64,000 bases of DNA, from positions 22,061 through 86,060 of the forward strand of contig CAYZYV010000002.1 in assembly GCA_964482735.1 (NCBI GenBank), in the 5' to 3' direction. Position 1 is the stretch's first letter; each line of letters opens with the position of its first letter. This DNA is from an uncultured Candidatus Saccharibacteria bacterium (lineage in GTDB: Bacteria > Patescibacteriota > Minisyncoccia > Phycocordibacterales > UBA9973). Positions 50,263 through 62,902 of this stretch are shown here, in pieces. A program made the position numbers and the translations under genes. The notes under the pieces are model-generated. The model did no database searches and was not told the DNA's origin. It saw nothing but the letters and a program-made list of their open reading frames with translations.

Positions 50263-51474
50263 TTATCTTTTTGTGAAAGCCTCTTTAGGAGATAATCCTG
50301 CAGCCCTGTGTGCTGGCCACCACCCCGATACAAGACCTATTAAAACAGAGAAAATTAAAATTAAGCCTATAAACCACCAGGGTGCCATAAAAAGCTTGAT
50401 TGAATCTCCCCCGAATTGTTTTGAAAATATAGTGATGAGTAAATTTAGTAATTTTCCACCACCAACCCCTATTATAATACCCCCTATTCCACCCATTAAC
50501 CCCATAATAGAAGATTCAACTAAAAATAAATTTCTAACATCATAATCTGTTGCTCCTATGGATTTTAAAATTCCAACCTCATATATACGCTCAAGAAAAC
50601 CGACAAGCATGGTGTTAAACATCCCTATAGCAGAAACAATCAACGCTGTTATACCAAATACTCCTAAAATAATTGTAACAATGTTAGTAAATTTTCTAGC
50701 TTGAGTAACTAAATCTATACGGGCAGAAACAAAAAATCCATCTTTTTGTAACTTATCTCTTAGAGGTTCCAACACCTCAGTGCTTTTTGCTCTCACCAAG
50801 GCCTTAGTGTAAAAAGGTGGCTCTTCGGTTAAAGAAGAAGAAAACAATACAGCTGTGGGGACCAAAGAATCATCTTCAATGATTCCAGATATCTTTAGCG
50901 GTGTTTTTGTCTTGGACTCAGTGTAGGTATTAGCTATATTGTCTTGATAAAAAACAGTAAAAGATACTTCTTTATTTAAAGACGAAGCATCCGCAGGTAA
51001 GTTCATAGGGGCCAGTGTCTGACTAGTAACAACTATTCCAGGTTCTTTCTCTGATGGAATTTTACCTATGGAAGGAACAGAACCGGACAATCGATAGTAA
51101 GATGGCTCTACGATGGAATTATCTATAAGTATACTTGACTCATCAGACAAAAACATTTCTCCAGAAAAATCTGCAACAGGACTCACTTCAGCTACCTCTT
51201 CGTAGTTTTTAATATTTTCTAAATTAGCTTTTTTGATAAAAAGGTTACTTTCAGAAGGATAAGAAATTTCCATAGTAACCAATGAATCTTCTGTAGTCAT
51301 CAACTTTCCTATCAATATATACTGCAAACCATAACCAAGTGACACTAGTAGTAAAACTGTAGCAATACCAACAGACATACCTAATATAGTTAAAAGAGCT
51401 CTTTGTGGTTTATTCCTAAAAGTACGAAAAGATAAAGAAAATAGTTCACTAAATTTTAATTTTTTATTTTGCAT
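50263..51474 (-). CDS. ABC transporter permease, FtsX/MacB family
   Basis: N-terminal TM, large extracytoplasmic domain, and three C-terminal TMs. 403 aa. Confidence 0.8.
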   Translation of the reverse strand: MQNKKLKFSELFSLSFRTFRNKPQRALLTILGMSVGIATVLLLVSLGYGLQYILIGKLMTTEDSLVTMEISYPSESNLFIKKANLENIKNYEEVAEVSPVADFSGEMFLSDESSILIDNSIVEPSYYRLSGSVPSIGKIPSEKEPGIVVTSQTLAPMNLPADASSLNKEVSFTVFYQDNIANTYTESKTKTPLKISGIIEDDSLVPTAVLFSSSLTEEPPFYTKALVRAKSTEVLEPLRDKLQKDGFFVSARIDLVTQARKFTNIVTIILGVFGITALIVSAIGMFNTMLVGFLERIYEVGILKSIGATDYDVRNLFLVESSIMGLMGGIGGIIIGVGGGKLLNLLITIFSKQFGGDSIKLFMAPWWFIGLILIFSVLIGLVSGWWPAHRAAGLSPKEAFTKR

Positions 51475-52816
51475 TTTTTATTTCATCATCACAAATATTT
51501 TTATCACAGACCTCTTCTTCACAATTCAAAATCAACTCAAGTTTTTCTCCTATAGTAGAAGCAGCTCTAAAAGACAGACCGACTCCAAACTTACTATTAG
51601 ATAAATCCAAGACCTCCACTACTTTTTCGGGTGTAATATTTTCTCTTAAACGATCCGAAACTACTTGATCTATTGCTTTAACTTGAATATCTTTTAAAGT
51701 ACCAGTATACCCTTCTATAAGCCAGTTTCTTATTTCTTCGACTTCTTTATTTATAGGTAATTCTGGTCCTCTTTCTAGTATATCATAAACACAAGCCACA
51801 TTTTTACGCATTTTAATAACTTCTTCTATATAATTAGCAACCTTTTCAGATTTTTTCTTCCATAATCCCAGCCCTCCGTCTTTAAAAGGTTTGTTCAATT
51901 TATCTTTTAAGTTGTTTTTATTAATTTTCTCATCAAAACGCTCATTAACAAGATCTTCAAATCGAGATATTTCTTCTATGGAATAACCACGTAGTAAAAA
52001 GTTAGCCAGTATTCGAGCTGAAATTTTTTCATGACCCAAAACTTGTCTTTCTTTTACAGAGGAAACATCATTTATTTGATCATATAATCTCTTTGATATA
52101 GCATCAACAACGTTGCCTTTACTTACTTTCTCTACTTCCAAAACACTCCCATCTTTTATATGAAAAATTGTTTTGGCATCTTTAAGACTCCAAGCTTCGT
52201 GGGTTACCATAATTACTGTTCTGCCATCTTTTTCATTCAATTCCTTTAAAAATTCTAGTACTATTTTAGCGTTCACAGAGTCAAGGTTACCAAGAGGTTC
52301 GTCTGCAATAATAATTGGTGGATTATTAGCCAGTGCTCTCGCTATACCAACTCTTTGTTGCTGTCCCCCAGATAATTCATAAGGATATCTTGAAGCAAAA
52401 CTAGCAAGGTTTAACCTCTCTAAAAGGTTCTTCGCTTCTTCTTCGGCTCTTTCTGAACTTACCCCGACAAAAAGCATTGGCAATGCTACGTTTTTAAGCA
52501 CAGTAAGAGAAGGAATAAGGTTAAATTGTTGAAAAACAATTCCTATACCTGTTTGTCTAAAAATAGCCAACTCTTGATTTGTGAGTTCTGAAATATCTCT
52601 TCCTTGTATGTAAACATGTCCATCTTGGAATCTATCTATCCCAGAAATAGAATAAAGCATGGAAGTCTTTCCACATCCTGAAGGTCCAAAAAAGGCTACG
52701 TAATCTCCTCTCTCTATTTCTAAATTTATGTCTTTTAGGGCGTGAACTTGATTAGGTTTTCCTTTTTCGTACCAAAGATTAAGATTTTCAATTTTAATTA
52801 TTGAATCCATAAACAT
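51464..52816 (-). CDS. ABC transporter ATP-binding protein (MacB/LolD-type NBD) with ~220-aa C-terminal extension of unknown function
   Basis: Walker A GPSGCGKTS. Signature LSGGQQQRV. Walker B IIIADEP. H-loop. Residues ~230-450 carry no recognisable motif. Confidence 0.85.
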   Translation of the reverse strand: MFMDSIIKIENLNLWYEKGKPNQVHALKDINLEIERGDYVAFFGPSGCGKTSMLYSISGIDRFQDGHVYIQGRDISELTNQELAIFRQTGIGIVFQQFNLIPSLTVLKNVALPMLFVGVSSERAEEEAKNLLERLNLASFASRYPYELSGGQQQRVGIARALANNPPIIIADEPLGNLDSVNAKIVLEFLKELNEKDGRTVIMVTHEAWSLKDAKTIFHIKDGSVLEVEKVSKGNVVDAISKRLYDQINDVSSVKERQVLGHEKISARILANFLLRGYSIEEISRFEDLVNERFDEKINKNNLKDKLNKPFKDGGLGLWKKKSEKVANYIEEVIKMRKNVACVYDILERGPELPINKEVEEIRNWLIEGYTGTLKDIQVKAIDQVVSDRLRENITPEKVVEVLDLSNSKFGVGLSFRAASTIGEKLELILNCEEEVCDKNICDDEIKNAK

Positions 52817-53234
52817 TGTCTGTATAAGTAATTAATTCCTTGGGTAAAAGATTGCCCTTTATCAAAAATCCATCAATTCCTAAATCTTCAAATTTCTTCT
52901 GAATTTTTTTATCTTTTTGGCTAGAGTAAATTATTATTTTAAGATCAGAATACACTTTATTTTTTTTGATTTCAGAAATAAAATCGTATGATCTTCGAAT
53001 CTGACTTTCTATATCGTTTTTATCCCCATTTTTAGAAATTAAAATGTCTAAAAATACAACAGAAGGTCTTGTTTTCTCGTCTTCTATCAATATAGAAGCT
53101 TCTTCTAAGCTAGAGGCTAAGGATACATCGTAAATATCACCTCTTCCGTGAATCCAAAAGATATCTCTAAAGTATATTCTTGTTAATTCGTCATCATCGA
53201 TTAATAGCACTCGGTTCTTTTTGTTTTTATCCAT
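52794..53234 (-). CDS. Stand-alone response-regulator receiver (CheY-like) domain protein
   Basis: Acidic pocket LIDDDE. Phospho-acceptor Asp in VVFLDILIS. Conserved S (IIYSSQ) and K (FLIKG). 146 aa with no output domain. Confidence 0.7.
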   Translation of the reverse strand: MDKNKKNRVLLIDDDELTRIYFRDIFWIHGRGDIYDVSLASSLEEASILIEDEKTRPSVVFLDILISKNGDKNDIESQIRRSYDFISEIKKNKVYSDLKIIIYSSQKDKKIQKKFEDLGIDGFLIKGNLLPKELITYTDNVYGFNN

Positions 53235-53244
53235 AGACTATTGG

Positions 53245-56200
53245 TTACTTTACATTGTTTATAAAATTAAATGTCTCATCAAAATTCTTAAATATAACAT
53301 CTACGATTGATTCTGTCTTCTTCGGAGTAATAATTGTTCTTATTGGTAATTTTGAAGTATTTCCGACGTCATCAGTAGAAGAAACTGTAAATCTGTAAAC
53401 TGCGCCTGGTTTTAAGGCTCCTAGAATTACTACGTGATTTCTTGTTAATTCTAGATCTTCTTGTTTATTGCTAAGCTCTCCTGAAGTACTACCGGAACCT
53501 TCTTCGTAATAAACTATAGACGTAGAAGGTTCATCTGTTTGCCAGGATATTATCGTCTGGACTCTATCGGTTCTTCCTTGAACAAGAGCACTATCAACTT
53601 TAAGATTTGTAACTGATGGGGGTAAGCTATCTGTAGAAGTTTTAACATTTAGTTCCGATCCACTTTCTACGGTATTCCCTTTATTGTTAATACCAGAAAC
53701 TTTTACTACATACGAGGTGCCCGGAGAAAGATTTTCGATCTTTATGGAGTGTGATGTATTTTTTTCTTCATCTACAATTTTTGAGGTTCTACCAGTCTTA
53801 GTATTCTTATATTCAATGATAGAAGTGGTTGGTTCATCTGTGGCCCACACGACCGCAAATGAATCTTTCTTTACATCTATTATTGAAGCTTGAATCTTGG
53901 AAGCTGAAGTAGTAAATATTAAGTCGTCCGATTTTCCTATTACTCCAGGTAGAGAATAAGCTTTTGCTGAATAATGATACTTTGTGTTAGATTTTAATCC
54001 TATTAATTTAATAGAGTGACTGGTGGATTTTTCCAATGTATTAGAGGATTCTCCGTTGTATGGGTTTTCTTTACTTGAATCGTATTTTTCATCTTCTATG
54101 TAGCTAACAACCGGGAATGATTTAACATTTGTTCTGTATTTAATAGTGGCACCACTCTCTGTAATATCAACAACTTCAGGTTTATCTATAAAAGGAGGAA
54201 CTAATGAAGGTAATATAGATTCAATTGTGGTCTCGATCTCTTTCTGGAATTGTTCTACGTTATCTATCTTTTTGAGTTCTGATAAGTCTTCGCTTAGATA
54301 TTTTGTTGTAAACTCTTTGTTTTCCGAATTACCTGTATCATTTGATTTATCCATGGCACTAATCTTGAAATTATAAAGAGTACCAAGACTTAAACCGTTG
54401 AGTTTGATTATATGCCGTTGAGACCAATTATCATCAGCACTCATTAGTCCGTAATTATCTTCTTTTCCGTACTTAATGAAAGCAATAGTATCTTCATTGG
54501 TGTTAAAAGAAATGGAAGCTCCAAAAGCAGTTATGTCAGAAATTTCTATATTGGATATTTCAGGAGCGATAGAATCCAAAGTGCTAAACTTCGCTTTGTA
54601 TGCTTGGTTTTCAGCTAGTAATAAATCATAAAGTTCCTGAGCAACTCCTGTTATTCCACCACCTCCTTTTGAAATAATCACTTTTTCTTTTGCTGTGGTC
54701 TCAAAAGAATACTCATCGGAAGTTGTTTCGTTACCGTTTTCATCGGTGGATTTAATTACATAATAATACTGCGTACTTTCTTCTAGCTCACTAATTGTTG
54801 CTAGGTGATTTGTAACTAGAGTATAAATAAGCTCTGTTTGATTGGTATAATCTCCAGAATTTTTTCCGTACAAAACACGACCATCTGCAGGTTCGTTAGT
54901 TGTCCAAGTTACAGCTACTTGTGAATTAGTTCTTATAGGGGTAGATATATCAGATATAATAGGAGCTGTTTCATCGTCGTTAGTACTGAATGTATAATAA
55001 CTGCCACCATTAGCACTTTCTCCCGTATTACCTAATTCATCAGAACTCATAACTAAAAAGTAGTAGATTTCATTAGGAACTAACCCCGTCAAAGAAACTG
55101 AGTGTTCGGTAGATAAAACTTCATCAGTTACAGTAGAAGGAGACGTCATATCTGGATTGATAGAATAACTAACTACAGAATTAGATGGAATATTTGTCGT
55201 CCATGTAATAGTAGCTCCTGTATCTGTTTCTCCTAGCGAGGCTACACTTGTTATTATAGGTCCTGGTGTAGTAGTAAACTGAGATCTAGAAATAGTTGTT
55301 TCTCCTGCCAAATTTGTAGATGTAGTCCTAAAGTAATAAGTAGTTTCTGGGGTTAAATTATCTATATAAATATTGTGATTTAAGACTTTATCCAACGATT
55401 GTTTTGATACACTGTAAACACCTTCTTCACCTTCTCTAATCGTTCCGTATTCTATCAAACTATCTGTATAATCAGCAGTGGTCCAGACTATTCTAGCACT
55501 CGTTGATTTTACACTTGCTCCATTAATATCACTAACAAGAATTTCATTGTCTAAGATAGAAAAGGCATGAATAATATCAGATCCTAATACTGCGTTTATA
55601 GGATTCGACAAAGTTATTAATACGTTTTCTGTTTCTTCGGAAAGCTCGTCATCAAAAATCACCACTGGAATGTTTACATTAGTTGATCCGGCAGAAATAA
55701 TTCCTTCATATCCTTCTATCAAATAATCAATACCATTGCCATCTGCAGACCCTCCTGTTACAGTGTAGTTAAATTTTATATCTTCAGGATATGGAGAAGA
55801 AATATTAACTAAAATATTTGCCGTATTTACATCTTCTTTTGCTTGACTTGTAAGACTAGCGAAAGATAAAGTTGGGTAAGTATCATTATCTATAATAGTA
55901 TAAGTATAAGTGGTGTTTGAATTCAAATTAGCTCCTGTTGCACCTGTTAATTTTACAATAACAGTTTCATCGTTTTCTTTTTTAGTATCGTCAATTATTA
56001 TTAAATCTATATTAGCTTCATCTTCACCTTTTAGTATTGTGATATTTCCAGAGGCAAGAGAAAAGTCTGATTCACTCGTAGCACTTCCACTTACTTCATA
56101 AGAAATGATAACATCTACCTCTGAAACTTCTGACAAAGTTATTGGTATTTTTACAGAAGTTATATTTTCTGTATTAGACACTGTAGATAAACTAAAACCA

Positions 56201-59200
56201 ACATTTGGATTAGAATCATTATCTTCTACTGTTAAAGTAAATATATTATTTTGACCAATTTGGGCATTTATTGGATTTTTTAAAGTCACCAAAATAGTCT
56301 CAGAATTTTCTTTTACGATATCATCTATTATAGGAATATTTAATGTAGTAGTTGTTGTCCCTGATGGTATGGTTATACTGCCGTTTATCATTGAGTGATC
56401 TAATCCATAAGAAGCCGAGCCTGAAATTGAATAATCTATACTTGCATCAAAAACATAAGGTCTGTCTAAAATAATATTGACTGGAAAATTATTACCATTT
56501 TCACTGGTAGCTATACCGGAAACCTCAAATGATACAGAAGGAGCGGTTAAGTCTAAAGTTTGCAATAAACCATCTTCAGAATAATCATTTTGAGTAGATA
56601 AAGGACTAAAATTAGGCTCACTGTTATCATGCGCAACCACTCTAATCCCTAAATTATCATAATTACCACCCATTAATCCTGTTTCATTAAATGTATTCCA
56701 CAAGATAGACATGTTTTCTCCATCCTCTAGGTAGTAATCACTGTAATCAAAACTATTAGGTGTGGTATTATCAGCCATAACCCAAACAGGAGTACCTGCA
56801 AAAAAGTCAGTATTCTGACGAGTCTCTCTTCCTTCAGAAACCAAATTAGGCCAAGTGCCAAGAACTAAACCACCAATAGTATTATTGTTTCTATTGTTAT
56901 ATTTTATGACTTCATTATTTATTAAAACATAACCACTATCTTTTAAGCCAGAGGAATTAGATAATTTTAAAGAAGTTCCATCGTAAGGATTATCACTCAA
57001 GGTTAATCCATTGTAATAAAACAAATACTCTTCAAAAGAAGGGTTATCTTTTTCATAGACGGTAGAATCTGTTATCTTGTATGTAACTACAACATTTCTT
57101 TCGTTGTTTTGAGCAACAATAACATTATTTATTATTGCAGATTGGTTAAGAACCCCACCACCCCCTTCTCCATAATTTTGTAAACCATCAGCCTTTACTA
57201 TTAAATCATTTCCTTGCCGAACAGAGATATTCCCATAAATATCAACCACTGAAATCAAAAACTTATGTATAAAAGATGGGGTGAGGTTTTTATACAGATA
57301 AAAATCTGTATTAACATCTGAAAGAACTCCGTCTTCCACTTCTCCTTCCTTATAAAAATTGGTTCCATCTGGTGAAATAAATTTCTCTATCTTGAAATGA
57401 GAAAAGTTTTGATATGACATTTTTAACCACCCTAGATACATAGCATAGTAATGGGTTTCCACATTAGAAACATCTTGTACTACAAAAGATTTTTCATAAA
57501 TAGGATCTGGCGATTCAAGGGTTACAATATTATTTGCATCTTCATTATTAAATAAATCTCTAAATCTTACTCCGGCTATCTTAGAATTAATTTGACTATC
57601 AAAAGACCATGGTACAGAAACTTCATCGCCAACCATTTCCACCCACCCTGTATCCATCATTTCTCCATTAGCATTAGATCTAAAATCTACAACTCGATAT
57701 TCTATATAACCAGAACTTTCTATAGGCCTTTTTATTTTAATTAATGCACTATTTTCTACTCCAACAATTCCAGCATCTAATGTTGCTGATAATTTTTCGT
57801 TCTCAAAATAAGGAATCTTGGTGTCTATGGATATCCCTTCACTTGAAGCACTTGATAAATTGTGAATGTTTTCTCCATCATCCACAGTAACTCTAATGAA
57901 GAGATCATCTCCTGATATTGACGAATCGTGTCCTCGAACAATATTTTTTACATCCAAAACAGCTTCGTGTGTAGTATAAGAAGATTCGTTTACTTCTTTA
58001 AGAGAAATATCTCCCTGTCTCAAAATAGGACTACTAGAAAAAACCAAAACAGAGGCATCTGCCCAATCAGAAGATTCTCCTACTTTATATTCTATTTTAG
58101 GAAGAACCTGGCCTGGGTAATTTACACCATGACTAGTATCCACATCTTTTACTTCATAAGTAAGTAAGACTTTTCCAAGATCTGCACTGTTCCTGTCTTG
58201 TATTTGATATGCTAGTACGTTTTTAATCTCAGGAGGTTTGTTCATCTCATAATCTATGCCTACCGATTGAACAACAGGCGTTGAATATCCTTCTGGATTA
58301 ATTTCTAATTTATATTGGAAATATCGATCATCACTACCAGAATTTAGAGGGTGGAGAGAATTCATTACTACACCCTTATTTTCTATTTTAAAATAATCTG
58401 TCTCTTCTCCTGTGCCAGAAAAACCATACCATGAAGACCAATTAGCTTTATCTGAGGATGTTCTAACCTTAATCAAAATTTTAGAAGTCTCTGATTCACC
58501 TGAAGCACTCCAGGACACTTTACTTAATCCAGATTCAGAATCTTCAGTATCAAAAATTGATGATATAAGATATCCATTAACGTATTCACTATAATTAAAA
58601 GTTATAGAATCGAAGGTGGGAGTAACTTCTGAATTGTTAGTAGATAAATTAACTCTATACTGAACGTATCTTTTATTACCCAAAGCTAAAAGGCTTCCAC
58701 CATCCAAAATAGTATTATTCCAATTTGTCCAACTACCATCTACTGTATTTGTATTTCCAGCTCTAACATCCACTGTTATATTTTGACCATTAAGAGTAGT
58801 TGAGTAATTAACTGAATTTAAAATGACTTGTTTTCCAAAATCCACAACAGGAGAAGTGTAAGAACCTTCTGTGTTATATGTATTAGTACCAGCCGACATA
58901 TTAGAATAAGAAACTGAGGCCTTTTTAACTAAAACAGGATAAGCCTTGTTTTCTCTTGTAGTATCACCAAGTTGTCCATAATCATTTCTTCCCCAAGCGT
59001 AAACTGTTCCATCGTTGTTTATGGCATAAACGGTATGCATATCAGACGTCAAAGATTTTATACTTCCTAAATACCCAGAATTATTTTCACCAACCACTTT
59101 AACTGGAACATTTCTATTTGTGGTGGTACCATCCCCTAATTGTCTATTGCTATTATTACCCCAAGAATATACCGTACCATCAGTTTTAAGTGCATAAGCA

Positions 59201-62022
59201 GAAAGTTCTCCAGCTGCCATTTTTGATACACCACTCAAAACACCTGTTCCACCTTCTCCTAAAACCTTGACGGGTGTATTCCTTTGATTGCTTGAACCAT
59301 CTCCTAATTGTCCATAATCATTTCTTCCCCAAGCGTAAACATTACCATTAATATCAATTGCATAAACCGAATTACTCTTGCTAGGAATAATATCTACTAT
59401 ATTAGAAAGGAAACCAGTTCCTCCAACTCCTAAAACTTGAACTGGGGTATTTTTTTTGACATTTGTTCCATCTCCCAACTGACCGGATCCATTGTGTCCC
59501 CACGCGTAAACAGTTCCGTCGTCTTTAAGAGCATAAACAGAGTAAGAAGTTGGAATTATTTTTGTAATCCCTGTTAAATATCCAGTACCTCCAACTCCTT
59601 TTACTTGAACGGGGGTATTATTCTGATCGTATGTACCATTTCCTGATTGACCATCATTGTTTTGTCCCCAGGCATAAACCGTTCCGTCATCTTTAAGAGC
59701 ATAAACTGCATACGTATACATAGAAGGGGCAATTTCTTTTATCCCAGTTAAATATCCAACACCTCCAACTCCTAAAACTTGAATAGGAGCATACTCGTTA
59801 TAAATTGTCCCATTTCCTAATTGTCCATAAACATTTCTTCCCCACGCGTAAACAGTTCCGTCATCCTTAAGAACATAGGCACTTTCTCCTAAAGATTCTA
59901 ATTTTAGAATATCACTTAGATAACCATTATTTCCAACACCTTTAACTTGAACCGGTGTTGATGTAGAAGCATAACTTCCATCTCCTAATTTACTATTATT
60001 GTTGCTCCCCCAAGAAAATACAGTGCCATCAGTTTTTAGAGCAAAAGCAGCAGCACCAGTAGCGCCTGTCCCACCCGACACTAAACTTTTTACACCTGTA
60101 AGATACCCAATATTATTTACCCCTTTAACTTGGACTGCAAAACTTCTGTCATCTAAATCTCCATGACCTAATTGTCCATCGTTATTTCTACCTAAAGCGT
60201 ATACAGAACCATCTTTTTCATATAAAAAAGAATTACCGGAATTATTTCCTGTTGTAATATTTATTTCTGAACTCAGACCTTCTTTGATATTGGTAAAATT
60301 TCCAATATTTTCTAATTGAATATTGACTGGAATGTTTTTACTAACTATAGTAGTATCTCCTAATTGGCTGCCATTATTTTGTCCCCAGGCGTAAATAGTC
60401 CCGTCGTTTTTAATGGCATAAATTGAATTAGATTTTCCAGCTACAATCTGCTTTACATTATTAAGACTACCTTCACCGGTTATATCTTTAACTAATACAG
60501 GTGTTGATCTGTTGGAATTAGTACCATCTCCTAATTTACCATTACTATTACTACCCCAAGAATATATAGTATAGTCATTTCTTAAAATATAAACAGAATT
60601 GGAAGTAGCACTGATTTGTTTAGCATTATCCAAATAACCAGTTCCACCCAACCCTTTAACTTGAACTGGAGTGTTTCTATGGGAAGTAGTACCGTCTCCT
60701 AATTGATAACTACTATTTTGCCCTAAAGAATATATTAATCCACCACTAGATTTAAGTATGGCAAAATTAGTATTGGTAACTATTTGATCTATATTTTCCA
60801 AAACCCCAACACTGTTGACGCCCTTAACTTGAACTGGCGTATTTCTGTCTGTACCAGTTGTTCCATCCCCTAATTGTCCATACCCGTTATACCCCCAAGC
60901 ATAAACTGTTCCATCATCTTTAAGAGCATATGCAAAATTGTTTGCAGATGATAAGTCTATAATATTTGTTAAGTAGCCACTTCCATCTACACCTTTCACT
61001 TGAACAGGAGTATTGCTTTGTGTGGTTGTTCCATCTCCTAGTTGTCCGTTATTATTTTGCCCCCAAGCATAAACTGTTCCATCATCTTTAAGAGCATAAA
61101 CCGCATTACCAGAAGATAATACTTTTTTAACACCCGTTAAAAATCCTACACCTCCAACACTCTTAACTTGTACAGGGGTTTTTGCGTTAGCAACAACAGA
61201 ACCATCTCCTAATTGTCCATAATCATTTCTTCCCCAAGCGTAAACATTTCCATCATTATCTACAGCCAACGTAGTATTTGTGTTTGCAACAACGTCTTTA
61301 ATATTGCTTAAATACCCCACACCAGAAACTCCCTTGACTTGAACAGGAATATTTTTATTTGTAATAGTATCGTCTCCTAGTTGCCCGTATCCGTTATATC
61401 CCCAACCATACAATGTTCCATCATTTTTTAAAACAAAAACAGAAGTGTCTGCTGCCACTATTTTTCTTGCATTGTCTAAATATCCAATACCACTAGAATC
61501 AGTCACTCTTTGGGGTGTAGATCTGTTTGAACTATTAGTACCGCTACCTAATTGTATATTTGTGTTTTTCCCCCATGACCAAACCCCTCCATTGGAATCT
61601 ATTAAGTAAACACCTGTTCCGTTTGAGGTGGTAGTAATCTGAATCTCTGACATACCAGATCTGTCCAATCCAACGGAAGCAGTTTCTCCAGTACTCACTA
61701 TTTCAGTTTGAGAGTTTACACCACCACTAAAATCAGAGTCAGATGTTTGAACTTTAGCACCGGAAGATGTAGAGGCAGAAATATTTTCTCCAATATTTAA
61801 ATTATTATTTTCTGTTATATATGACCAACCAGTTTTGTTCAGTTGATGAGTAGCAATCTCACTAGATTCAAGACCTGACCAATTATTTTGAGTAAAAGAA
61901 TAGGTGGCAGCTTGTGCAATTTGAGTATTAAATATTTGTCCAAAAACTAAAAGCAAAACAAAAACAAAAGAAAGTGATACTTTCCCTACTTTTAAAAGTT
62001 TTTTAAAATATTTTTTGTACAT
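53245..62022 (-). CDS. Giant secreted surface protein (2925 aa): signal peptide, 16 RCC1 beta-propeller repeats, beta-sandwich region, three Calx-beta domains, multiple FN3-like domains
   Basis: Signal peptide ends at AQA-ATY. There are sixteen repeats of the pattern VY[AS]WGxNxxGQLGDGTxxxxxTPVQVKGV. The three Calx-beta modules each carry the DDxxxExxE pattern (IIDDIVKENSE, IIDDTKKENDE, IFDDELSEETE). The C-terminal W...Y..R FN3-like modules follow. Confidence 0.8.
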   Translation of the reverse strand: MYKKYFKKLLKVGKVSLSFVFVLLLVFGQIFNTQIAQAATYSFTQNNWSGLESSEIATHQLNKTGWSYITENNNLNIGENISASTSSGAKVQTSDSDFSGGVNSQTEIVSTGETASVGLDRSGMSEIQITTTSNGTGVYLIDSNGGVWSWGKNTNIQLGSGTNSSNRSTPQRVTDSSGIGYLDNARKIVAADTSVFVLKNDGTLYGWGYNGYGQLGDDTITNKNIPVQVKGVSGVGYLSNIKDVVANTNTTLAVDNDGNVYAWGRNDYGQLGDGSVVANAKTPVQVKSVGGVGFLTGVKKVLSSGNAVYALKDDGTVYAWGQNNNGQLGDGTTTQSNTPVQVKGVDGSGYLTNIIDLSSANNFAYALKDDGTVYAWGYNGYGQLGDGTTGTDRNTPVQVKGVNSVGVLENIDQIVTNTNFAILKSSGGLIYSLGQNSSYQLGDGTTSHRNTPVQVKGLGGTGYLDNAKQISATSNSVYILRNDYTIYSWGSNSNGKLGDGTNSNRSTPVLVKDITGEGSLNNVKQIVAGKSNSIYAIKNDGTIYAWGQNNGSQLGDTTIVSKNIPVNIQLENIGNFTNIKEGLSSEINITTGNNSGNSFLYEKDGSVYALGRNNDGQLGHGDLDDRSFAVQVKGVNNIGYLTGVKSLVSGGTGATGAAAFALKTDGTVFSWGSNNNSKLGDGSYASTSTPVQVKGVGNNGYLSDILKLESLGESAYVLKDDGTVYAWGRNVYGQLGNGTIYNEYAPIQVLGVGGVGYLTGIKEIAPSMYTYAVYALKDDGTVYAWGQNNDGQSGNGTYDQNNTPVQVKGVGGTGYLTGITKIIPTSYSVYALKDDGTVYAWGHNGSGQLGDGTNVKKNTPVQVLGVGGTGFLSNIVDIIPSKSNSVYAIDINGNVYAWGRNDYGQLGDGSSNQRNTPVKVLGEGGTGVLSGVSKMAAGELSAYALKTDGTVYSWGNNSNRQLGDGTTTNRNVPVKVVGENNSGYLGSIKSLTSDMHTVYAINNDGTVYAWGRNDYGQLGDTTRENKAYPVLVKKASVSYSNMSAGTNTYNTEGSYTSPVVDFGKQVILNSVNYSTTLNGQNITVDVRAGNTNTVDGSWTNWNNTILDGGSLLALGNKRYVQYRVNLSTNNSEVTPTFDSITFNYSEYVNGYLISSIFDTEDSESGLSKVSWSASGESETSKILIKVRTSSDKANWSSWYGFSGTGEETDYFKIENKGVVMNSLHPLNSGSDDRYFQYKLEINPEGYSTPVVQSVGIDYEMNKPPEIKNVLAYQIQDRNSADLGKVLLTYEVKDVDTSHGVNYPGQVLPKIEYKVGESSDWADASVLVFSSSPILRQGDISLKEVNESSYTTHEAVLDVKNIVRGHDSSISGDDLFIRVTVDDGENIHNLSSASSEGISIDTKIPYFENEKLSATLDAGIVGVENSALIKIKRPIESSGYIEYRVVDFRSNANGEMMDTGWVEMVGDEVSVPWSFDSQINSKIAGVRFRDLFNNEDANNIVTLESPDPIYEKSFVVQDVSNVETHYYAMYLGWLKMSYQNFSHFKIEKFISPDGTNFYKEGEVEDGVLSDVNTDFYLYKNLTPSFIHKFLISVVDIYGNISVRQGNDLIVKADGLQNYGEGGGGVLNQSAIINNVIVAQNNERNVVVTYKITDSTVYEKDNPSFEEYLFYYNGLTLSDNPYDGTSLKLSNSSGLKDSGYVLINNEVIKYNNRNNNTIGGLVLGTWPNLVSEGRETRQNTDFFAGTPVWVMADNTTPNSFDYSDYYLEDGENMSILWNTFNETGLMGGNYDNLGIRVVAHDNSEPNFSPLSTQNDYSEDGLLQTLDLTAPSVSFEVSGIATSENGNNFPVNIILDRPYVFDASIDYSISGSASYGLDHSMINGSITIPSGTTTTTLNIPIIDDIVKENSETILVTLKNPINAQIGQNNIFTLTVEDNDSNPNVGFSLSTVSNTENITSVKIPITLSEVSEVDVIISYEVSGSATSESDFSLASGNITILKGEDEANIDLIIIDDTKKENDETVIVKLTGATGANLNSNTTYTYTIIDNDTYPTLSFASLTSQAKEDVNTANILVNISSPYPEDIKFNYTVTGGSADGNGIDYLIEGYEGIISAGSTNVNIPVVIFDDELSEETENVLITLSNPINAVLGSDIIHAFSILDNEILVSDINGASVKSTSARIVWTTADYTDSLIEYGTIREGEEGVYSVSKQSLDKVLNHNIYIDNLTPETTYYFRTTSTNLAGETTISRSQFTTTPGPIITSVASLGETDTGATITWTTNIPSNSVVSYSINPDMTSPSTVTDEVLSTEHSVSLTGLVPNEIYYFLVMSSDELGNTGESANGGSYYTFSTNDDETAPIISDISTPIRTNSQVAVTWTTNEPADGRVLYGKNSGDYTNQTELIYTLVTNHLATISELEESTQYYYVIKSTDENGNETTSDEYSFETTAKEKVIISKGGGGITGVAQELYDLLLAENQAYKAKFSTLDSIAPEISNIEISDITAFGASISFNTNEDTIAFIKYGKEDNYGLMSADDNWSQRHIIKLNGLSLGTLYNFKISAMDKSNDTGNSENKEFTTKYLSEDLSELKKIDNVEQFQKEIETTIESILPSLVPPFIDKPEVVDITESGATIKYRTNVKSFPVVSYIEDEKYDSSKENPYNGESSNTLEKSTSHSIKLIGLKSNTKYHYSAKAYSLPGVIGKSDDLIFTTSASKIQASIIDVKKDSFAVVWATDEPTTSIIEYKNTKTGRTSKIVDEEKNTSHSIKIENLSPGTSYVVKVSGINNKGNTVESGSELNVKTSTDSLPPSVTNLKVDSALVQGRTDRVQTIISWQTDEPSTSIVYYEEGSGSTSGELSNKQEDLELTRNHVVILGALKPGAVYRFTVSSTDDVGNTSKLPIRTIITPKKTESIVDVIFKNFDETFNFINNVK
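58990..61640 (-). repeat. Sixteen tandem RCC1-type coding repeats (~150-165 nt each) inside the giant gene
   Basis: Repeated GQLGDG / TPVQVKG peptide motifs. Coordinates are approximate, derived from amino-acid positions ~130-1010. Confidence 0.6.
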
Positions 62023-62354: not shown

Positions 62355-62612
62355 ATGTTTATGAATGAGAATTTTATACAAATCAAAGAAGCATCAGAAT
62401 TACTGGGGGTCTCAAAACTAACCCTTAGGAATTGGGACAATAGTGGAAAGCTTGTTTCTTACCGACATCCTATTAACAATTATCGTATATATAAGAAATC
62501 TGACATTTTAAAACTTCTAGACAGCTTCCCTCTTTCAAATACTATTAAAAATAAAAAAGTGGAGAAAAAAGAAAAAGTCTACAAATTAAAAGTTATACAC
62601 TTAAAAGATTAA
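62355..62612 (+). CDS. MerR-family-like helix-turn-helix DNA-binding protein (short, no effector domain)
   Basis: IKEASELLGVSKLTLRNWDNSGKLVSYRHPINNYRIYKKSDI matches the MerR N-terminal HTH consensus (TLR.YE..GLL.P.R...gYR.Y...D). 85 aa. Confidence 0.55.
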   Translation: MFMNENFIQIKEASELLGVSKLTLRNWDNSGKLVSYRHPINNYRIYKKSDILKLLDSFPLSNTIKNKKVEKKEKVYKLKVIHLKD

Positions 62613-62632: not shown

Positions 62633-62902
62633 ATGATAATATCATCTAATATGATAACAGTAATAGAAGTAAAAAAGAATGCCAATGAGAGCAATATGAA
62701 TCTAGTGAGAAGATTCACTCGTAAAGTTCAAGAATCTGGCATCATCCAAAAAGTAAAGAGTAAGAGATATAACAAGCGAGCTGAATCTAAGGTTAAAACA
62801 AAGCAAGCTGCCCTTAAAAAAATCTCTCGCAAAAAAGAATTTGAAAAGCTCTTCAAACTAGGTAAAGAAAACAAAACAGCTAGAAGAGGAATTCGAAAAT
62901 AA
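62633..62902 (+). CDS. rpsU: 30S ribosomal protein S21
   Basis: The ITVIEVKKNANESNMNLVRRFTRKVQESGII pattern and the basic C-terminus match S21. The true start is possibly the internal Met at 62651. Confidence 0.6.
   Translation: MIISSNMITVIEVKKNANESNMNLVRRFTRKVQESGIIQKVKSKRYNKRAESKVKTKQAALKKISRKKEFEKLFKLGKENKTARRGIRK

What the first reader, a model, noticed from the sequence alone, without database searches (positions are those of the whole stretch)
53245..62022. 2925-aa secreted protein with 16 eukaryote-like RCC1 repeats
The gene codes sixteen highly regular RCC1 blades (WG-N-x-x-GQLGDG ... TPVQVKGV), enough for two 7-8-bladed propellers. This is followed by ~900 aa of beta-rich sequence, three Calx-beta modules and about six FN3-like modules. 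I found no LPXTG motif and no C-terminal TM.

Proteins of this size and architecture in reduced genomes are candidate host or cell-cell attachment factors. The DNA is internally repetitive (~2.6 kb of 150-165-nt repeats), which also makes it a hotspot for recombination and assembly collapse.
Basis: seen in the sequence. Interest (0 to 1): 0.65.

Follow-up and report, generated by a model that had tools for sequence, protein, structure and literature searches.

The report
Giant RCC1-headed surface protein, ABC-linked
This is an intact 2925-residue exported surface protein of an ultrasmall (Patescibacteria) bacterium; its RCC1 propeller "head" is ordinary for bacteria, and the notable parts are its conserved rear end and the transporter genes next to it, which recur across the phylum.

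Summary
ORF 53245-62022 (-) is intact and encodes 2925 aa:
- a Sec-type signal peptide;
- 16 RCC1 repeats;
- a 787-aa all-beta stalk with no Pfam match;
- 3 Calx-beta modules;
- 7 FN3-like modules;
- no LPXTG motif and no C-terminal TM segment.

Three points need correcting.
- **"Eukaryote-like":** RCC1 repeats are common in bacterial giant proteins (>5000 homologues).
- **DNA repeats:** the period is 168-192 nt and mean identity is only 52%, so the assembly-collapse risk is low.
- **Blade count:** AlphaFold2 suggests two units of eight blades each.

The protein belongs to a Patescibacteria-wide family defined by its C-terminal ~775 aa: FN3x3, linker, FN3, linker, FN3x3, then an invariant amphipathic tail ES[IV]xD[VI]IFKNFxxxFxF.
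- The N-terminal head is swappable. Only about 8 of 38 complete family members carry RCC1.
- In 47 of 66 genome loci, the gene is followed directly by a receiver protein, a long ABC ATPase and a MacB/FtsX-type permease. The reverse search gives about 46 of 65 metagenome loci.

**Best reading:** a modular adhesin-like surface protein whose variable head binds a partner cell. The conserved tail end probably couples to the ABC machine, but that step is inferred, not shown.

The parts
53245..62022 (-). Whole gene, 2925 aa plus stop codon
   Evidence: Open frame with ATG start. Full-length orthologues P0001 (73% identity, 2923 aa), P0002, P0003, P0004 and P0006.
61909..62022 (-). Sec-type signal peptide, aa 1-38 (K-rich n-region, hydrophobic core, AQA|AT cleavage site)
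   Evidence: Read from the sequence. It is the only stretch with Kyte-Doolittle hydropathy >1.6 in the protein.
61618..61908 (-). Mature N-terminal region, aa 39-135, starting with the family motif ATYxFxQxxWSGG
   Evidence: The consensus is visible in alignments A1 and A4 and in many family ORFs whatever their head. AF2 pLDDT is <50 over most of it (aa 39-125).
60253..61617 (-). RCC1 unit A, aa 136-590: 8 RCC1 blades
   Evidence: Pfam RCC1 and WD40_RLD. Eight motif anchors at aa 150-546. The AF2 model has 32 blade strands in this unit, pLDDT mostly >90. Foldseek top hits are UVR8, HERC2 RLD and RCC1.
58903..60252 (-). RCC1 unit B, aa 591-1040: 8 RCC1 blades
   Evidence: Eight motif anchors at aa 610-1010. 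AF2 gives 31 blade strands plus a closing strand, pLDDT mostly >90.
56545..58902 (-). Beta-sandwich stalk, aa 1041-1826, no Pfam family. The first two modules carry an 'RYxQY' signature
   Evidence: No Pfam hit. AF2 mean pLDDT 80, all-beta. Foldseek matches only tandem FN3/Ig/macroglobulin ectodomains. 1030 cluster representatives match at E<=1e-3, in separable blocks.
55573..56544 (-). Three Calx-beta modules, aa 1827-2150, each with an acidic DDxxxExxE motif
   Evidence: Pfam PF03160, 3 stretches, each above the cut-off when tested alone. Motifs at aa 1898, 2009 and 2122.
54694..55572 (-). FN3-like modules 1-3, aa 2151-2443. The family-wide conserved core starts here
   Evidence: Pur_ac_phosph_N / fn3, 3 stretches. 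This segment is at least 78% covered in 35 of the 38 complete family proteins.
54571..54693 (-). Conserved linker 1, aa 2444-2484 (GGGG...GVAQELYDLLLAENQAYKA)
   Evidence: Lies between FN3 hits. 100% covered in all 38 family proteins. 51-75% identical in orthologues.
54307..54570 (-). FN3-like module 4, aa 2485-2572
   Evidence: fn3 / Pur_ac_phosph_N.
54187..54306 (-). Conserved amphipathic linker 2, aa 2573-2612 (KYLSEDLSELKKIDNVEQFQKEIETTIESILPSLVPPF)
   Evidence: 72-90% identical in orthologues whose heads are about 38% identical. Second-highest helical hydrophobic moment in the protein.
53332..54186 (-). FN3-like modules 5-7, aa 2613-2897
   Evidence: Pur_ac_phosph_N / fn3. The last module has many invariant columns in alignment A3.
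53248..53331 (-). Invariant C-terminal amphipathic tail, aa 2898-2925 (TPKKTESIVDVIFKNFDETFNFINNVK)
   Evidence: E, S, D, I, K, N, F, F are invariant across 20 diverse members. The motif sits at the extreme C-terminus of 34 of 268 fetched proteins and in 70 genome loci. Highest helical hydrophobic moment of the whole protein, 0.56.
52794..53234 (-). Stand-alone receiver-domain protein, 146 aa, starting 10 nt after the giant gene's stop
   Evidence: Pfam Response_reg. Present between the giant gene and the ABC gene in 37 of 47 linked genome loci. Conserved FxDxFWxH, S104 and K126.
51464..52816 (-). Long ABC ATPase, 450 aa: LolD/FtsE/MacB-like NBD plus a ~215-aa C-terminal extension of no known family. 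Overlaps the receiver gene by 23 nt
   Evidence: Pfam ABC_tran; NCBIfam LolD, FtsE and MacB models all below their cut-offs. The extension is conserved across loci (PFxxGGxGLW).
50263..51474 (-). MacB/FtsX-type permease, 403 aa: 4 TM segments with a ~215-aa extracytoplasmic domain. Overlaps the ATPase gene by 11 nt
   Evidence: Pfam MacB_PCD plus FtsX. Closest solved chains are B. subtilis YtrF 9o9x (E 7e-27) and MacB. Topology read from the sequence.
62355..62612 (+). Divergent small MerR-type HTH protein, 85 aa. Membership of the module is uncertain
   Evidence: Pfam MerR. Found upstream of the giant gene in several loci with otherwise different flanks (L001, L003, L004, L008, L014).

Best explanation
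The gene encodes a Sec-exported, cysteine-free, modular surface protein of a low-GC Patescibacteria (Paceibacteria-like) bacterium.

**Shown**
- **Architecture:** signal peptide, two RCC1 propeller units of eight blades each (predicted), an all-beta stalk of roughly seven sandwich domains by my reading of the model, three Calx-beta modules, then a ~775-aa core of FN3x3, linker, FN3, linker, FN3x3 and a 22-residue amphipathic tail.
- **Family:** that C-terminal core and tail define a phylum-wide family. The N-terminal heads are exchanged at the same locus (RCC1, BNR/Ycf48-like, EPTP-like, Lcl_C, Ig-like).
- **Operon:** the gene sits in a tight cluster with a receiver-domain protein, a long ABC ATPase and a MacB/FtsX-type (type VII) permease.

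**Inferred**
- The rapidly diverging propeller head is the ligand-binding end. It contacts a host or partner cell surface.
- The Calx-beta and beta-sandwich modules form a Ca2+-stiffened spacer.
- The invariant tail and/or linker 2 holds the protein at the cell by docking to the extracytoplasmic domain of the permease, or to the membrane beside it.
- The ATPase, under control of the receiver protein, could then transmit force or trigger release. This would resemble how FtsEX-type ABC systems act on extracytoplasmic partners without transporting them.
For: - **Domains and export signal:**
- **Propeller and stalk models:**
- **Conservation gradient.** Against orthologues P0002/P0003, the RCC1 head is about 38% identical, FN3 5-7 is 70-72%, linker 2 is 85-90% and the tail is 92%. 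Even against the closest orthologue, P0001, the head is 59-62% and the tail 100%.
- **Tail.** It has invariant columns across 20 diverse members and is the most amphipathic 18-mer in the protein.
- **Taxonomy.** The tail pattern retrieved 70 loci from species-representative genomes, nearly all labelled Patescibacteria lineages.
- **Forward linkage.** Of 66 loci with at least 1.5 kb of downstream DNA, 47 have the long ABC ATPase and the MacB/FtsX permease directly downstream on the same strand. 37 of those have the receiver gene in between. Four more loci have the ABC pair upstream.
- **Linkage survives rearrangement.** Flanks and gene order differ in L003 and L005, yet the pairing persists.
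- **Reverse linkage.** Starting from the ATPase in metagenomes, 65 loci have enough upstream DNA. 44 were scored as having a tail-bearing ORF ending directly upstream. L107 was added on inspection. L097 has one gene inserted between.
- **Operon structure in the window.** A 10-nt gap, then 23-nt and 11-nt overlaps.
- **Head swapping.** Only about 8 of 38 complete family ORFs carry RCC1. Other heads were identified by Pfam.
- **Literature.** An RCC1 propeller sits on a surface appendage in Saccharibacteria (PilX2, PMC11623550). Large FN3/Ca-adhesin proteins are proposed as host-contact factors in Patescibacteria (PMC13059738).
Against: - No binding, localisation or expression data exist. The ligand is unknown.
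- The link between the tail and the ABC machine is only genomic.
  - 15 of 66 tail-bearing loci, mostly Wolfe- and Yonathbacteria, show no ABC pair within view.
  - About 15 of 65 receiver-ABC-permease trios lie in other contexts.
- No complex prediction could be run.
- The receiver's acceptor Asp is conserved in only 60-90% of members, and no kinase gene is seen nearby.
- The eight-blade count rests on strand counting in one AF2 model, without coordinates. Foldseek matches to 7-bladed RLDs have TM 0.71-0.76 and rmsd about 4.9 A. That fits a different blade number but does not prove it.
Confidence: 0.6

Rival explanations
1. The MacB-type ABC pair is a post-Sec extractor or exporter. It pulls the giant protein (for example its tail or signal anchor) out of the membrane and releases it through the wall or S-layer, as LolCDE extracts lipoproteins or MacAB/Aat exports periplasmic proteins. 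On this reading the protein is secreted, not held.
For: Uses the same genomic linkage as the main explanation. The permease is closest to YtrF, MacB and LolC/E. The amphipathic tail could sit in the membrane surface.
Against: No membrane-fusion or outer-membrane partner is encoded in the cluster. The protein already has a standard Sec signal with an AxA site. The data do not distinguish holding from releasing.
Confidence: 0.2
2. The adjacency is only co-location or co-regulation. The receiver-ABC-permease trio has its own job (efflux, peptide resistance, or an envelope or division role like FtsEX or YtrBCDEF). The giant protein attaches by other means, with the tail binding wall or S-layer.
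For: The trio occurs without an adjacent tail-bearing gene in about 15 of 65 metagenome loci, and the tail-bearing gene occurs without the trio in 15 of 66 genome loci. In this lineage the locus lies among division and shape genes: FtsZ/FtsA, MreB, mraZ-PBP-Mur.
Against: The linkage is reciprocal at about 70% across many classes and survives changes of flanks and gene order. Start/stop overlaps indicate one transcript. NCBIfam FtsE and FtsX models score far below their cut-offs.
Confidence: 0.12
3. The ORF length or repeat number is an assembly artefact of the repetitive DNA.
For: Sixteen related units cover 2.75 kb, with one 50-nt exact repeat.
Against: The units are only 38-70% identical at DNA level and TRF finds no array of the unit length (only short-period rows). 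An independently assembled 2923-aa orthologue at 73% identity and four more at 2433-2899 aa share the domain architecture. A 100%-identical fragment exists in another collection (P0124).
Confidence: 0.03
4. It is a eukaryote-derived RCC1 effector that mimics a Ran/GTPase exchange factor inside a eukaryotic host, like Legionella LegG1/PieG.
For: RCC1 repeats with fold similarity to RCC1, HERC2 and UVR8. Bacterial RCC1 effectors exist (cited in 10.1101/2023.11.21.568195).
Against: The protein has a Sec signal and extracellular-type Calx-beta and FN3 modules. Thousands of bacterial homologues exist. In the same family the RCC1 head is replaced by unrelated heads. No translocation system is linked.
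Confidence: 0.02

Closest known systems
Bacterial RCC1/BLIP-II-repeat giant extracellular proteins (COG5184 'alpha-tubulin suppressor-like RCC1 family'; Oscillospiraceae RCC1 giants, 10.1101/2023.11.21.568195; repetitive RCC1/BLIP-II propellers, PMC9218822)
   Same: Long arrays of regular RCC1 blades in secreted, anchor-less bacterial proteins. The fold matches solved RCC1-like domains.
   Different: Here RCC1 makes up only the N-terminal third. It is one of several interchangeable heads on a conserved FN3/tail chassis, and each unit is predicted to have eight blades rather than the canonical seven.
PilX2 minor pilin of Saccharibacteria TM7x, with a seven-bladed RCC1 propeller (PMC11623550 / PMC12206443)
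   Same: An RCC1 propeller displayed on a surface structure of a Patescibacteria episymbiont, implicated in host interaction.
   Different: PilX2 is a pilin-associated protein. This protein has a Sec signal, no prepilin motif and no T4P genes adjacent, and it is ten times larger.
FtsEX-type (type VII ABC) mechanotransmission systems acting on extracytoplasmic partners (FtsEX with EnvC, PcsB, CwlO or RipC). Comparison from my own knowledge, not tested here
   Same: A MacB/FtsX-fold permease with a large extracytoplasmic domain and a LolD/FtsE-like ATPase, encoded next to a secreted partner with conserved helical segments.
   Different: Scores to the FtsE and FtsX equivalog models are far below their cut-offs. 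The ATPase has a unique 215-aa extension. A receiver protein is part of the operon. The partner is a giant adhesin-like protein, not a hydrolase activator.
Ca2+-stiffened giant RTX adhesins with dedicated ABC exporters (LapA, SiiE, MpIBP; PMC7493085, PMC6272769)
   Same: A giant protein with tandem beta-sandwich extender modules, Ca2+-binding-type modules, a distal ligand-binding region, and a genetically linked ABC system.
   Different: It has a Sec signal peptide. It has no RTX repeats and no T1SS-type fused ABC, MFP or OMP. The ABC here is MacB-type, in an organism with no evident outer membrane.
B. subtilis YtrF / E. coli MacB permeases (solved structures 9o9x, 5lil)
   Same: Best sequence matches of the neighbouring permease, with the same FtsX plus MacB_PCD architecture.
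   Different: Similarity is mostly confined to the C-terminal TM bundle (E 7e-27 over residues 224-392). The partners and operon content differ.

Membership tests
RCC1 / RCC1-like domain (RLD) beta-propellers | Repeats matching Pfam RCC1 above the gathering score | tested here: met
   PF00415: 471 bits against 21.7, 16 stretches. PF25390: 583 bits against 150.
RCC1 / RCC1-like domain (RLD) beta-propellers | Four-stranded blades, and fold similarity to solved RLDs | tested here: met
   The AF2 model has four strands per repeat at pLDDT >90. Foldseek top hits are UVR8, HERC2 RLD2/3, HERC1 RLD3 and RCC1, E down to 8e-28.
RCC1 / RCC1-like domain (RLD) beta-propellers | Seven-bladed closed propeller | tested here: inconclusive
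   There are eight repeats and about 32 strands per unit, with the wider anchor spacings (64 and 61 aa) falling between blades 8-9 and 9-10. TM to 7-bladed structures is only 0.71-0.76 at rmsd about 4.9 A.
RCC1 / RCC1-like domain (RLD) beta-propellers | Guanine-nucleotide exchange activity on Ran-type GTPases | not testable with these tools
   Unlikely for an exported protein of a bacterium. No evidence either way.
Calx-beta domain | Pfam PF03160 above cut-off, and an acidic Ca2+-site motif | tested here: met
   Three modules score 35.3, 38.1 and 35.8 bits against 27 when tested alone. DDxxxExxE motifs at aa 1898, 2009 and 2122. Ca2+ binding itself was not tested.
FN3-like (fn3 / Pur_ac_phosph_N) | Pfam match above cut-off | tested here: met
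   PF16656: 141.7 bits against 30. PF00041: 60.4 against 25. Seven modules in the segment-wise scan.
Patescibacteria tail-bearing giant surface protein family (unnamed; defined here) | Extreme C-terminal motif ES[IV]xD[VI]IFKNFxxxFxF after a conserved last FN3 | tested here: met
   Alignment A3 has invariant E84, S85, D88, I90, K92, N93, F94 and F98. The window protein ends ...ESIVDVIFKNFDETFNFINNVK.
Patescibacteria tail-bearing giant surface protein family (unnamed; defined here) | Core FN3x3, linker 1, FN3, linker 2, FN3x3 | tested here: met
   Linker 1 through FN3 5-7 of the window protein is 100% covered, and the tail 82-100%, in all 38 complete family ORFs. FN3 1-3 is at least 78% covered in 35 of them.
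Patescibacteria tail-bearing giant surface protein family (unnamed; defined here) | Adjacent receiver, long ABC ATPase and MacB/FtsX permease | tested here: met
   Present in the window with a 10-nt gap and gene overlaps. Found in 47 of 66 genome loci directly downstream, and about 46 of 65 in the reverse search.
Type VII (MacB/FtsX-type) ABC transporter (neighbouring genes) | FtsX TM bundle plus MacB periplasmic core domain, four TM segments, separate LolD/FtsE/MacB-like NBD | tested here: met
   PF02687: 66.3 bits against 25.5. PF12704: 37.5 against 27. Four hydrophobic segments with a ~215-aa loop, read. The NBD's best NCBIfam hits are LolD, FtsE, DarD and MacB.
FtsEX cell-division complex | Equivalog-level match to FtsE and FtsX | tested here: not met
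   FtsE: 190.7 bits against 264.85. FtsX_Gneg: 41.6 against 255. FtsX_Gpos: 32.9 against 225.
Type I secretion RTX adhesins (LapA/SiiE type) | No N-terminal signal peptide, C-terminal RTX GGxGxD repeats, HlyB-type ABC plus MFP | tested here: not met
   A signal peptide is present. No GGxGxD motif. The neighbouring ABC is MacB-type, and no MFP is in the cluster.
Sortase-anchored (LPXTG) surface proteins | LPXTG motif followed by a hydrophobic segment and basic tail | tested here: not met
   No [LIV]Px[TSA]G motif and no C-terminal hydrophobic window.

The most novel reading that the evidence does not exclude
The four genes form a previously undescribed, phylum-wide surface machine of Patescibacteria. 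A type VII ABC mechanotransmission complex, switched by its own receiver protein, holds a giant protein by its invariant amphipathic tail or linker. It uses ATP to deploy, tension or release an exchangeable host-recognition head (here a pair of eight-bladed RCC1 propellers). That would be an energised, regulated adhesin rather than a passive one.
Probability: 0.2. Interest if true: 0.8.

Novelty: new variant of a known kind. Interest (0 to 1): 0.5.

Why it matters
How ultrasmall Patescibacteria recognise and hold on to partner cells is largely unknown. So far the candidates are type IV pili and unspecified "large surface proteins".

The RCC1 protein itself is ordinary. The analysis does, however, delimit a concrete and widespread gene module that can be tested:
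- a conserved chassis and tail;
- a hypervariable head;
- a receiver protein;
- a MacB-type ABC transporter.

The head repertoire could serve as a marker of host range. The tail/ABC pairing suggests a new use of type VII ABC systems. If the eight-blade prediction holds, it would also extend the known geometry of RCC1-like propellers.

Tried and rejected
- **Tandem Repeats Finder** on the gene found no blade-length array. The units are too diverged.
- **Word-indexed homologue search with the stalk region** returned only 3 proteins. This was a sensitivity artefact. The exhaustive HMMER search found 1030 representatives, and BLAST against already fetched proteins found 27.
- **Locus search with the stalk alignment A2** failed for lack of a conserved 7-10-column stretch. 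It was replaced by the tail alignment A3.
- **Fold search of the stalk model** gave only generic tandem Ig/FN3/macroglobulin matches, with no enzyme or lectin fold identified.
- **Promoter/terminator scan** was uninformative, with fewer promoter-like sites than in shuffles.
- **Homologue search with the ATPase C-terminal extension** returned only unnamed fragments and no function.
- **Rejected after testing:** T1SS/RTX adhesin, LPXTG anchoring, FtsEX identity. **Rejected on the evidence gathered:** eukaryote-derived effector, assembly artefact. S-layer (SLH) protein is not indicated, because no SLH hit appeared. See the membership tests and rival explanations.
Full report
**1. The observation**

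The minus-strand ORF 53245..62022 is intact, starts with ATG and encodes 2925 aa.

- RCC1 PF00415: 471 bits (cut-off 21.7) in 16 separate stretches.
- RCC1-like domain PF25390: 583 bits.
- Calx-beta: 78 bits in 3 stretches.
- Pur_ac_phosph_N (an FN3-like fold): 142 bits in 6 stretches, plus fn3.

A motif scan finds exactly 16 'WGxNxxGQLG' anchors. They are 56-58 aa apart, except for 64 and 61 aa between blades 8-9 and 9-10.

Scanning the protein in ten segments gave three results.
- Each Calx-beta module passes the cut-off on its own.
- There are seven FN3-like modules (3+2+2).
- aa 1-140 and aa 1050-1830 have no significant Pfam match.

There is no LPXTG-like motif and no RTX repeat. The only hydrophobic stretch is the N-terminal signal peptide, which has a K-rich start, a hydrophobic core and an AQA|AT site. 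The protein contains no cysteine.

**2. The DNA repeats**

The repeated region is window 58870-61617 (2.75 kb). The unit is 168-192 nt, not 150-165. Ungapped identity between units averages 52% at DNA level (38-70%) and 39% at protein level. The longest exact intragenic repeat is 50 nt. Tandem Repeats Finder reports no array of the unit length, only a few short-period rows.

The gene length is corroborated by other assemblies. An independently assembled orthologue has 2923 aa at 73% identity, and four more have 2433-2899 aa. A 100%-identical fragment exists in another collection. Collapse or mis-assembly is therefore unlikely. The "recombination hotspot" idea rests on a single 50-nt identity.

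**3. Structure**

An AlphaFold2 model of aa 39-1065, built from a 31-sequence alignment, has mean pLDDT 84 and pTM 0.73. The repeats are mostly above 90.
- DSSP shows four strands per repeat.
- There are two units separated by a low-confidence hinge. Unit one is aa ~128-578 with 32 blade strands. Unit two is aa ~597-1041 with 31 plus a closing strand.
- That is eight blades per unit.

Foldseek's best PDB matches are UVR8, HERC2/HERC1 RLDs and RCC1 (E down to 8e-28). TM is only 0.71-0.76 and rmsd about 4.9 A over ~400 columns. This fits an RCC1-type blade in a ring of different size, but I could not inspect coordinates. The eight-blade statement is a prediction.

The stalk, aa 1040-1830, models as an all-beta string of sandwich domains, roughly seven by my reading of the strand pattern (pLDDT 80). 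It matches only tandem FN3/Ig/macroglobulin ectodomains.

An exhaustive HMMER search with the stalk finds 1030 cluster representatives at E<=1e-3. They fall into separable blocks. The stalk is therefore modular spacer material and shows no similarity to any known enzyme fold.

**4. Who has it**

More than 5000 proteins match at E<=1e-10, because RCC1 arrays are common in bacterial giant proteins. Hits that carry a name and share the whole architecture come from Paceibacterota, Moranbacteria, Wolfebacteria and "Patescibacteria group".

The window has about 33% GC and carries ordinary housekeeping genes: MreB, PriA, YbeY, the DNA polymerase III delta' subunit and a tRNA-Leu.

The label "eukaryote-like" is not informative. 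The RCC1/BLIP-II propeller group is described as mostly bacterial (PMC9218822).

**5.

The last 28 residues are nearly identical in orthologues whose heads have diverged strongly. The table gives percent identity to the window protein.

| Region | P0001 (closest) | P0002 / P0003 |
|---|---|---|
| RCC1 head | 59-62 | ~38 |
| FN3 1-3 | 71 | 73 / 62 |
| Linker 2 | 87 | 90 / 85 |
| Tail | 100 | 92 / 92 |

In an alignment of 20 diverse members, the residues E, S, D, I, K, N, F, F of the motif ES[IV]xD[VI]IFKNFxxxFxF are invariant. The tail is the most amphipathic 18-mer of the whole protein as a helix (muH 0.56; protein mean 0.18, 99th percentile 0.43). Linker 2 comes next.

BLAST of the window protein against 38 complete tail-bearing ORFs gave the following picture.
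- Linker 1 through the tail (aa ~2444-2925) is present in all 38. FN3 1-3 just upstream is at least 78% covered in 35 of them.
- The first stalk modules are present in most.
- The last stalk module and Calx-beta occur in close relatives only.
- RCC1 occurs in only about 8.

Other members at the same syntenic locus carry other heads.
- L008: Lcl_C plus five Calx-beta.
- L021: EPTP/DUF6242-like repeats.
- L046: a BNR/Ycf48-like propeller.
- L019: Ig-like and chitobiase-C modules.

RCC1 is therefore one interchangeable head on a fixed chassis.

**6. A conserved operon**

In the window the giant gene is followed, on the same strand, by three genes.
- After 10 nt: a 146-aa receiver-domain protein.
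- Overlapping by 23 nt: a 450-aa ABC ATPase.
- Overlapping by 11 nt: a 403-aa permease with MacB_PCD and FtsX domains.

The ATPase's first half is LolD/FtsE/MacB-like. Its last ~215 aa match no family. The permease's best solved relatives are B. subtilis YtrF and MacB.

The same arrangement appears around P0001, P0002, P0003 and P0006. P0006 has different upstream genes. Around the distant P0060 the order is ABC, permease, giant, among unrelated flanks.

| Test | Loci that can be judged | Linked | Other outcomes |
|---|---|---|---|
| Forward: tail pattern against one genome per species, 70 loci, nearly all Patescibacteria lineages | 66 with >=1.5 kb downstream | 47 have the ATPase and permease directly downstream on the same strand; 37 of these have the receiver between | 4 have the pair upstream; 15 show none in view, mostly Wolfe-/Yonathbacteria, some from genomes with two tail-bearing genes |
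| Reverse: motifs specific to the long ATPase against metagenomes | 65 with enough upstream DNA | 44 scored as having a tail-bearing ORF ending directly upstream; L107 added on inspection; L097 has one extra gene between | About 15 trios lie elsewhere, e.g. after rplL |

The association is reciprocal (about 70% each way) and survives rearrangement, but it is not obligatory.

**7. Mechanism**

*Shown:* export signal, modular architecture, variable head, conserved chassis and tail, operon with a receiver and a type VII ABC pair.

*Inferred:*
- The head binds a surface ligand on a partner or host cell.
- The beta-sandwich and Calx-beta modules carry DDxxxExxE motifs and act as a Ca2+-stiffened spacer, as in other giant adhesins (PMC7493085).
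- The tail and/or linker 2 docks to the ~215-aa extracytoplasmic domain of the permease, or lies on the membrane next to it.
- ATP hydrolysis, gated by the receiver protein, changes the state of the giant protein. This is by analogy with FtsEX-type systems that act on extracytoplasmic partners (my own knowledge).

Conservation of S104 and K126 at >=90%, and of the acceptor Asp in most members, fits a working receiver. The family also has an unusual FxDxFWxH motif, and no kinase is nearby.

*Rivals:*
- The ABC pair extracts or releases the protein rather than holding it.
- The adjacency reflects only co-regulation with an envelope or efflux transporter.
- Assembly artefact and eukaryote-type effector are both poorly supported.

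**8. Comparison with the known, and novelty**

Secreted bacterial RCC1 arrays are known: the Oscillospiraceae giants (10.1101/2023.11.21.568195) and the RCC1/BLIP-II propellers (PMC9218822). An RCC1 propeller on a Saccharibacteria pilus protein is also described (PMC11623550). Large FN3/Ca-adhesin proteins are already suggested as host-contact factors in Patescibacteria (PMC13059738). As an RCC1 surface protein, this is a new member of a known kind.

Five full-text searches turned up no description of three things:
- the conserved tail/linker chassis;
- the head swapping;
- the receiver plus long ATPase plus MacB-type permease operon.

The searches were limited and keyword-based, so prior description cannot be excluded. 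I rate the whole as a new variant of a known kind, with moderate interest (0.5).

The most novel reading not excluded is an ATP-driven, receiver-controlled adhesin machine. I give it about 20% probability.

Noticed in passing
window 61199-61248 and 59294-59343: A 50-nt exact repeat between the DNA of blade 3 and blade 14 (both encode NVYAWGRNDYGQLGDGS). Blade DNA is otherwise about 52% identical. This may be recent gene conversion between distant blades.
   Followed up: partly
window 51464-52170 (C-terminal ~215 aa of the ABC ATPase): A cytoplasmic extension with no Pfam or NCBIfam match. It is conserved across loci (PFxxGGxGLW). The NBD carries a family-specific MVTHEAWSL motif. The word-indexed search found only unnamed fragments.
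   Followed up: partly
window 52794-53234: The stand-alone receiver protein family has an unusual conserved FxDxFWxH motif. S104 and K126 are conserved at >=90%, but the acceptor Asp (D63) in only 60-90% of 106 members. No histidine kinase gene is seen nearby.
   Followed up: partly
window 61618-61908 (aa 39-135): The mature N-terminus starts with a motif, ATYxFxQxxWSGG, that recurs right after the signal-peptidase site in many family members whatever their head. AlphaFold2 confidence there is below 50. Function unknown.
   Followed up: no
window 53245-62022: There is no cysteine in the 2925 residues. S, G, T and N together make up 39% of the protein.
   Followed up: no
L097:6931-9054: In one metagenome locus a 707-aa gene is inserted between the tail-bearing giant gene and the receiver-ABC-permease trio. 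It was not characterised.
   Followed up: no
L045 and L051 (CP011209.1, Wolfebacteria complete genome); also L056/L062, L028/L030, L006/L075: Some genomes carry two tail-bearing giant genes. In CP011209.1 the two are divergent and about 10-15 kb apart, and neither shows an adjacent ABC pair in the fetched DNA. A ~5-kb stretch between the two loci was not fetched.
   Followed up: partly
L011, L017, L018: Three tail-bearing loci are labelled Burkholderiales, Clostridia and Thermoplasmata MAGs. Their sequences are 72-76% identical to the Patescibacteria tail module and carry the same downstream genes. They are probably mis-binned contigs.
   Followed up: no
window 62355-62612 (+): A small MerR-type HTH gene lies divergently upstream of the giant gene. 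It recurs upstream of orthologues even where the other flanking genes differ (L003, L008, L014). It may be a regulator of the module.
   Followed up: partly
window 62633-62902 (+): An 89-aa ORF has a weak, sub-threshold match to ribosomal protein S21 (19.7 bits against 27). It lies between the MerR gene and ybeY, and a gene of similar size (83 aa) sits at the same position in L001.
   Followed up: no
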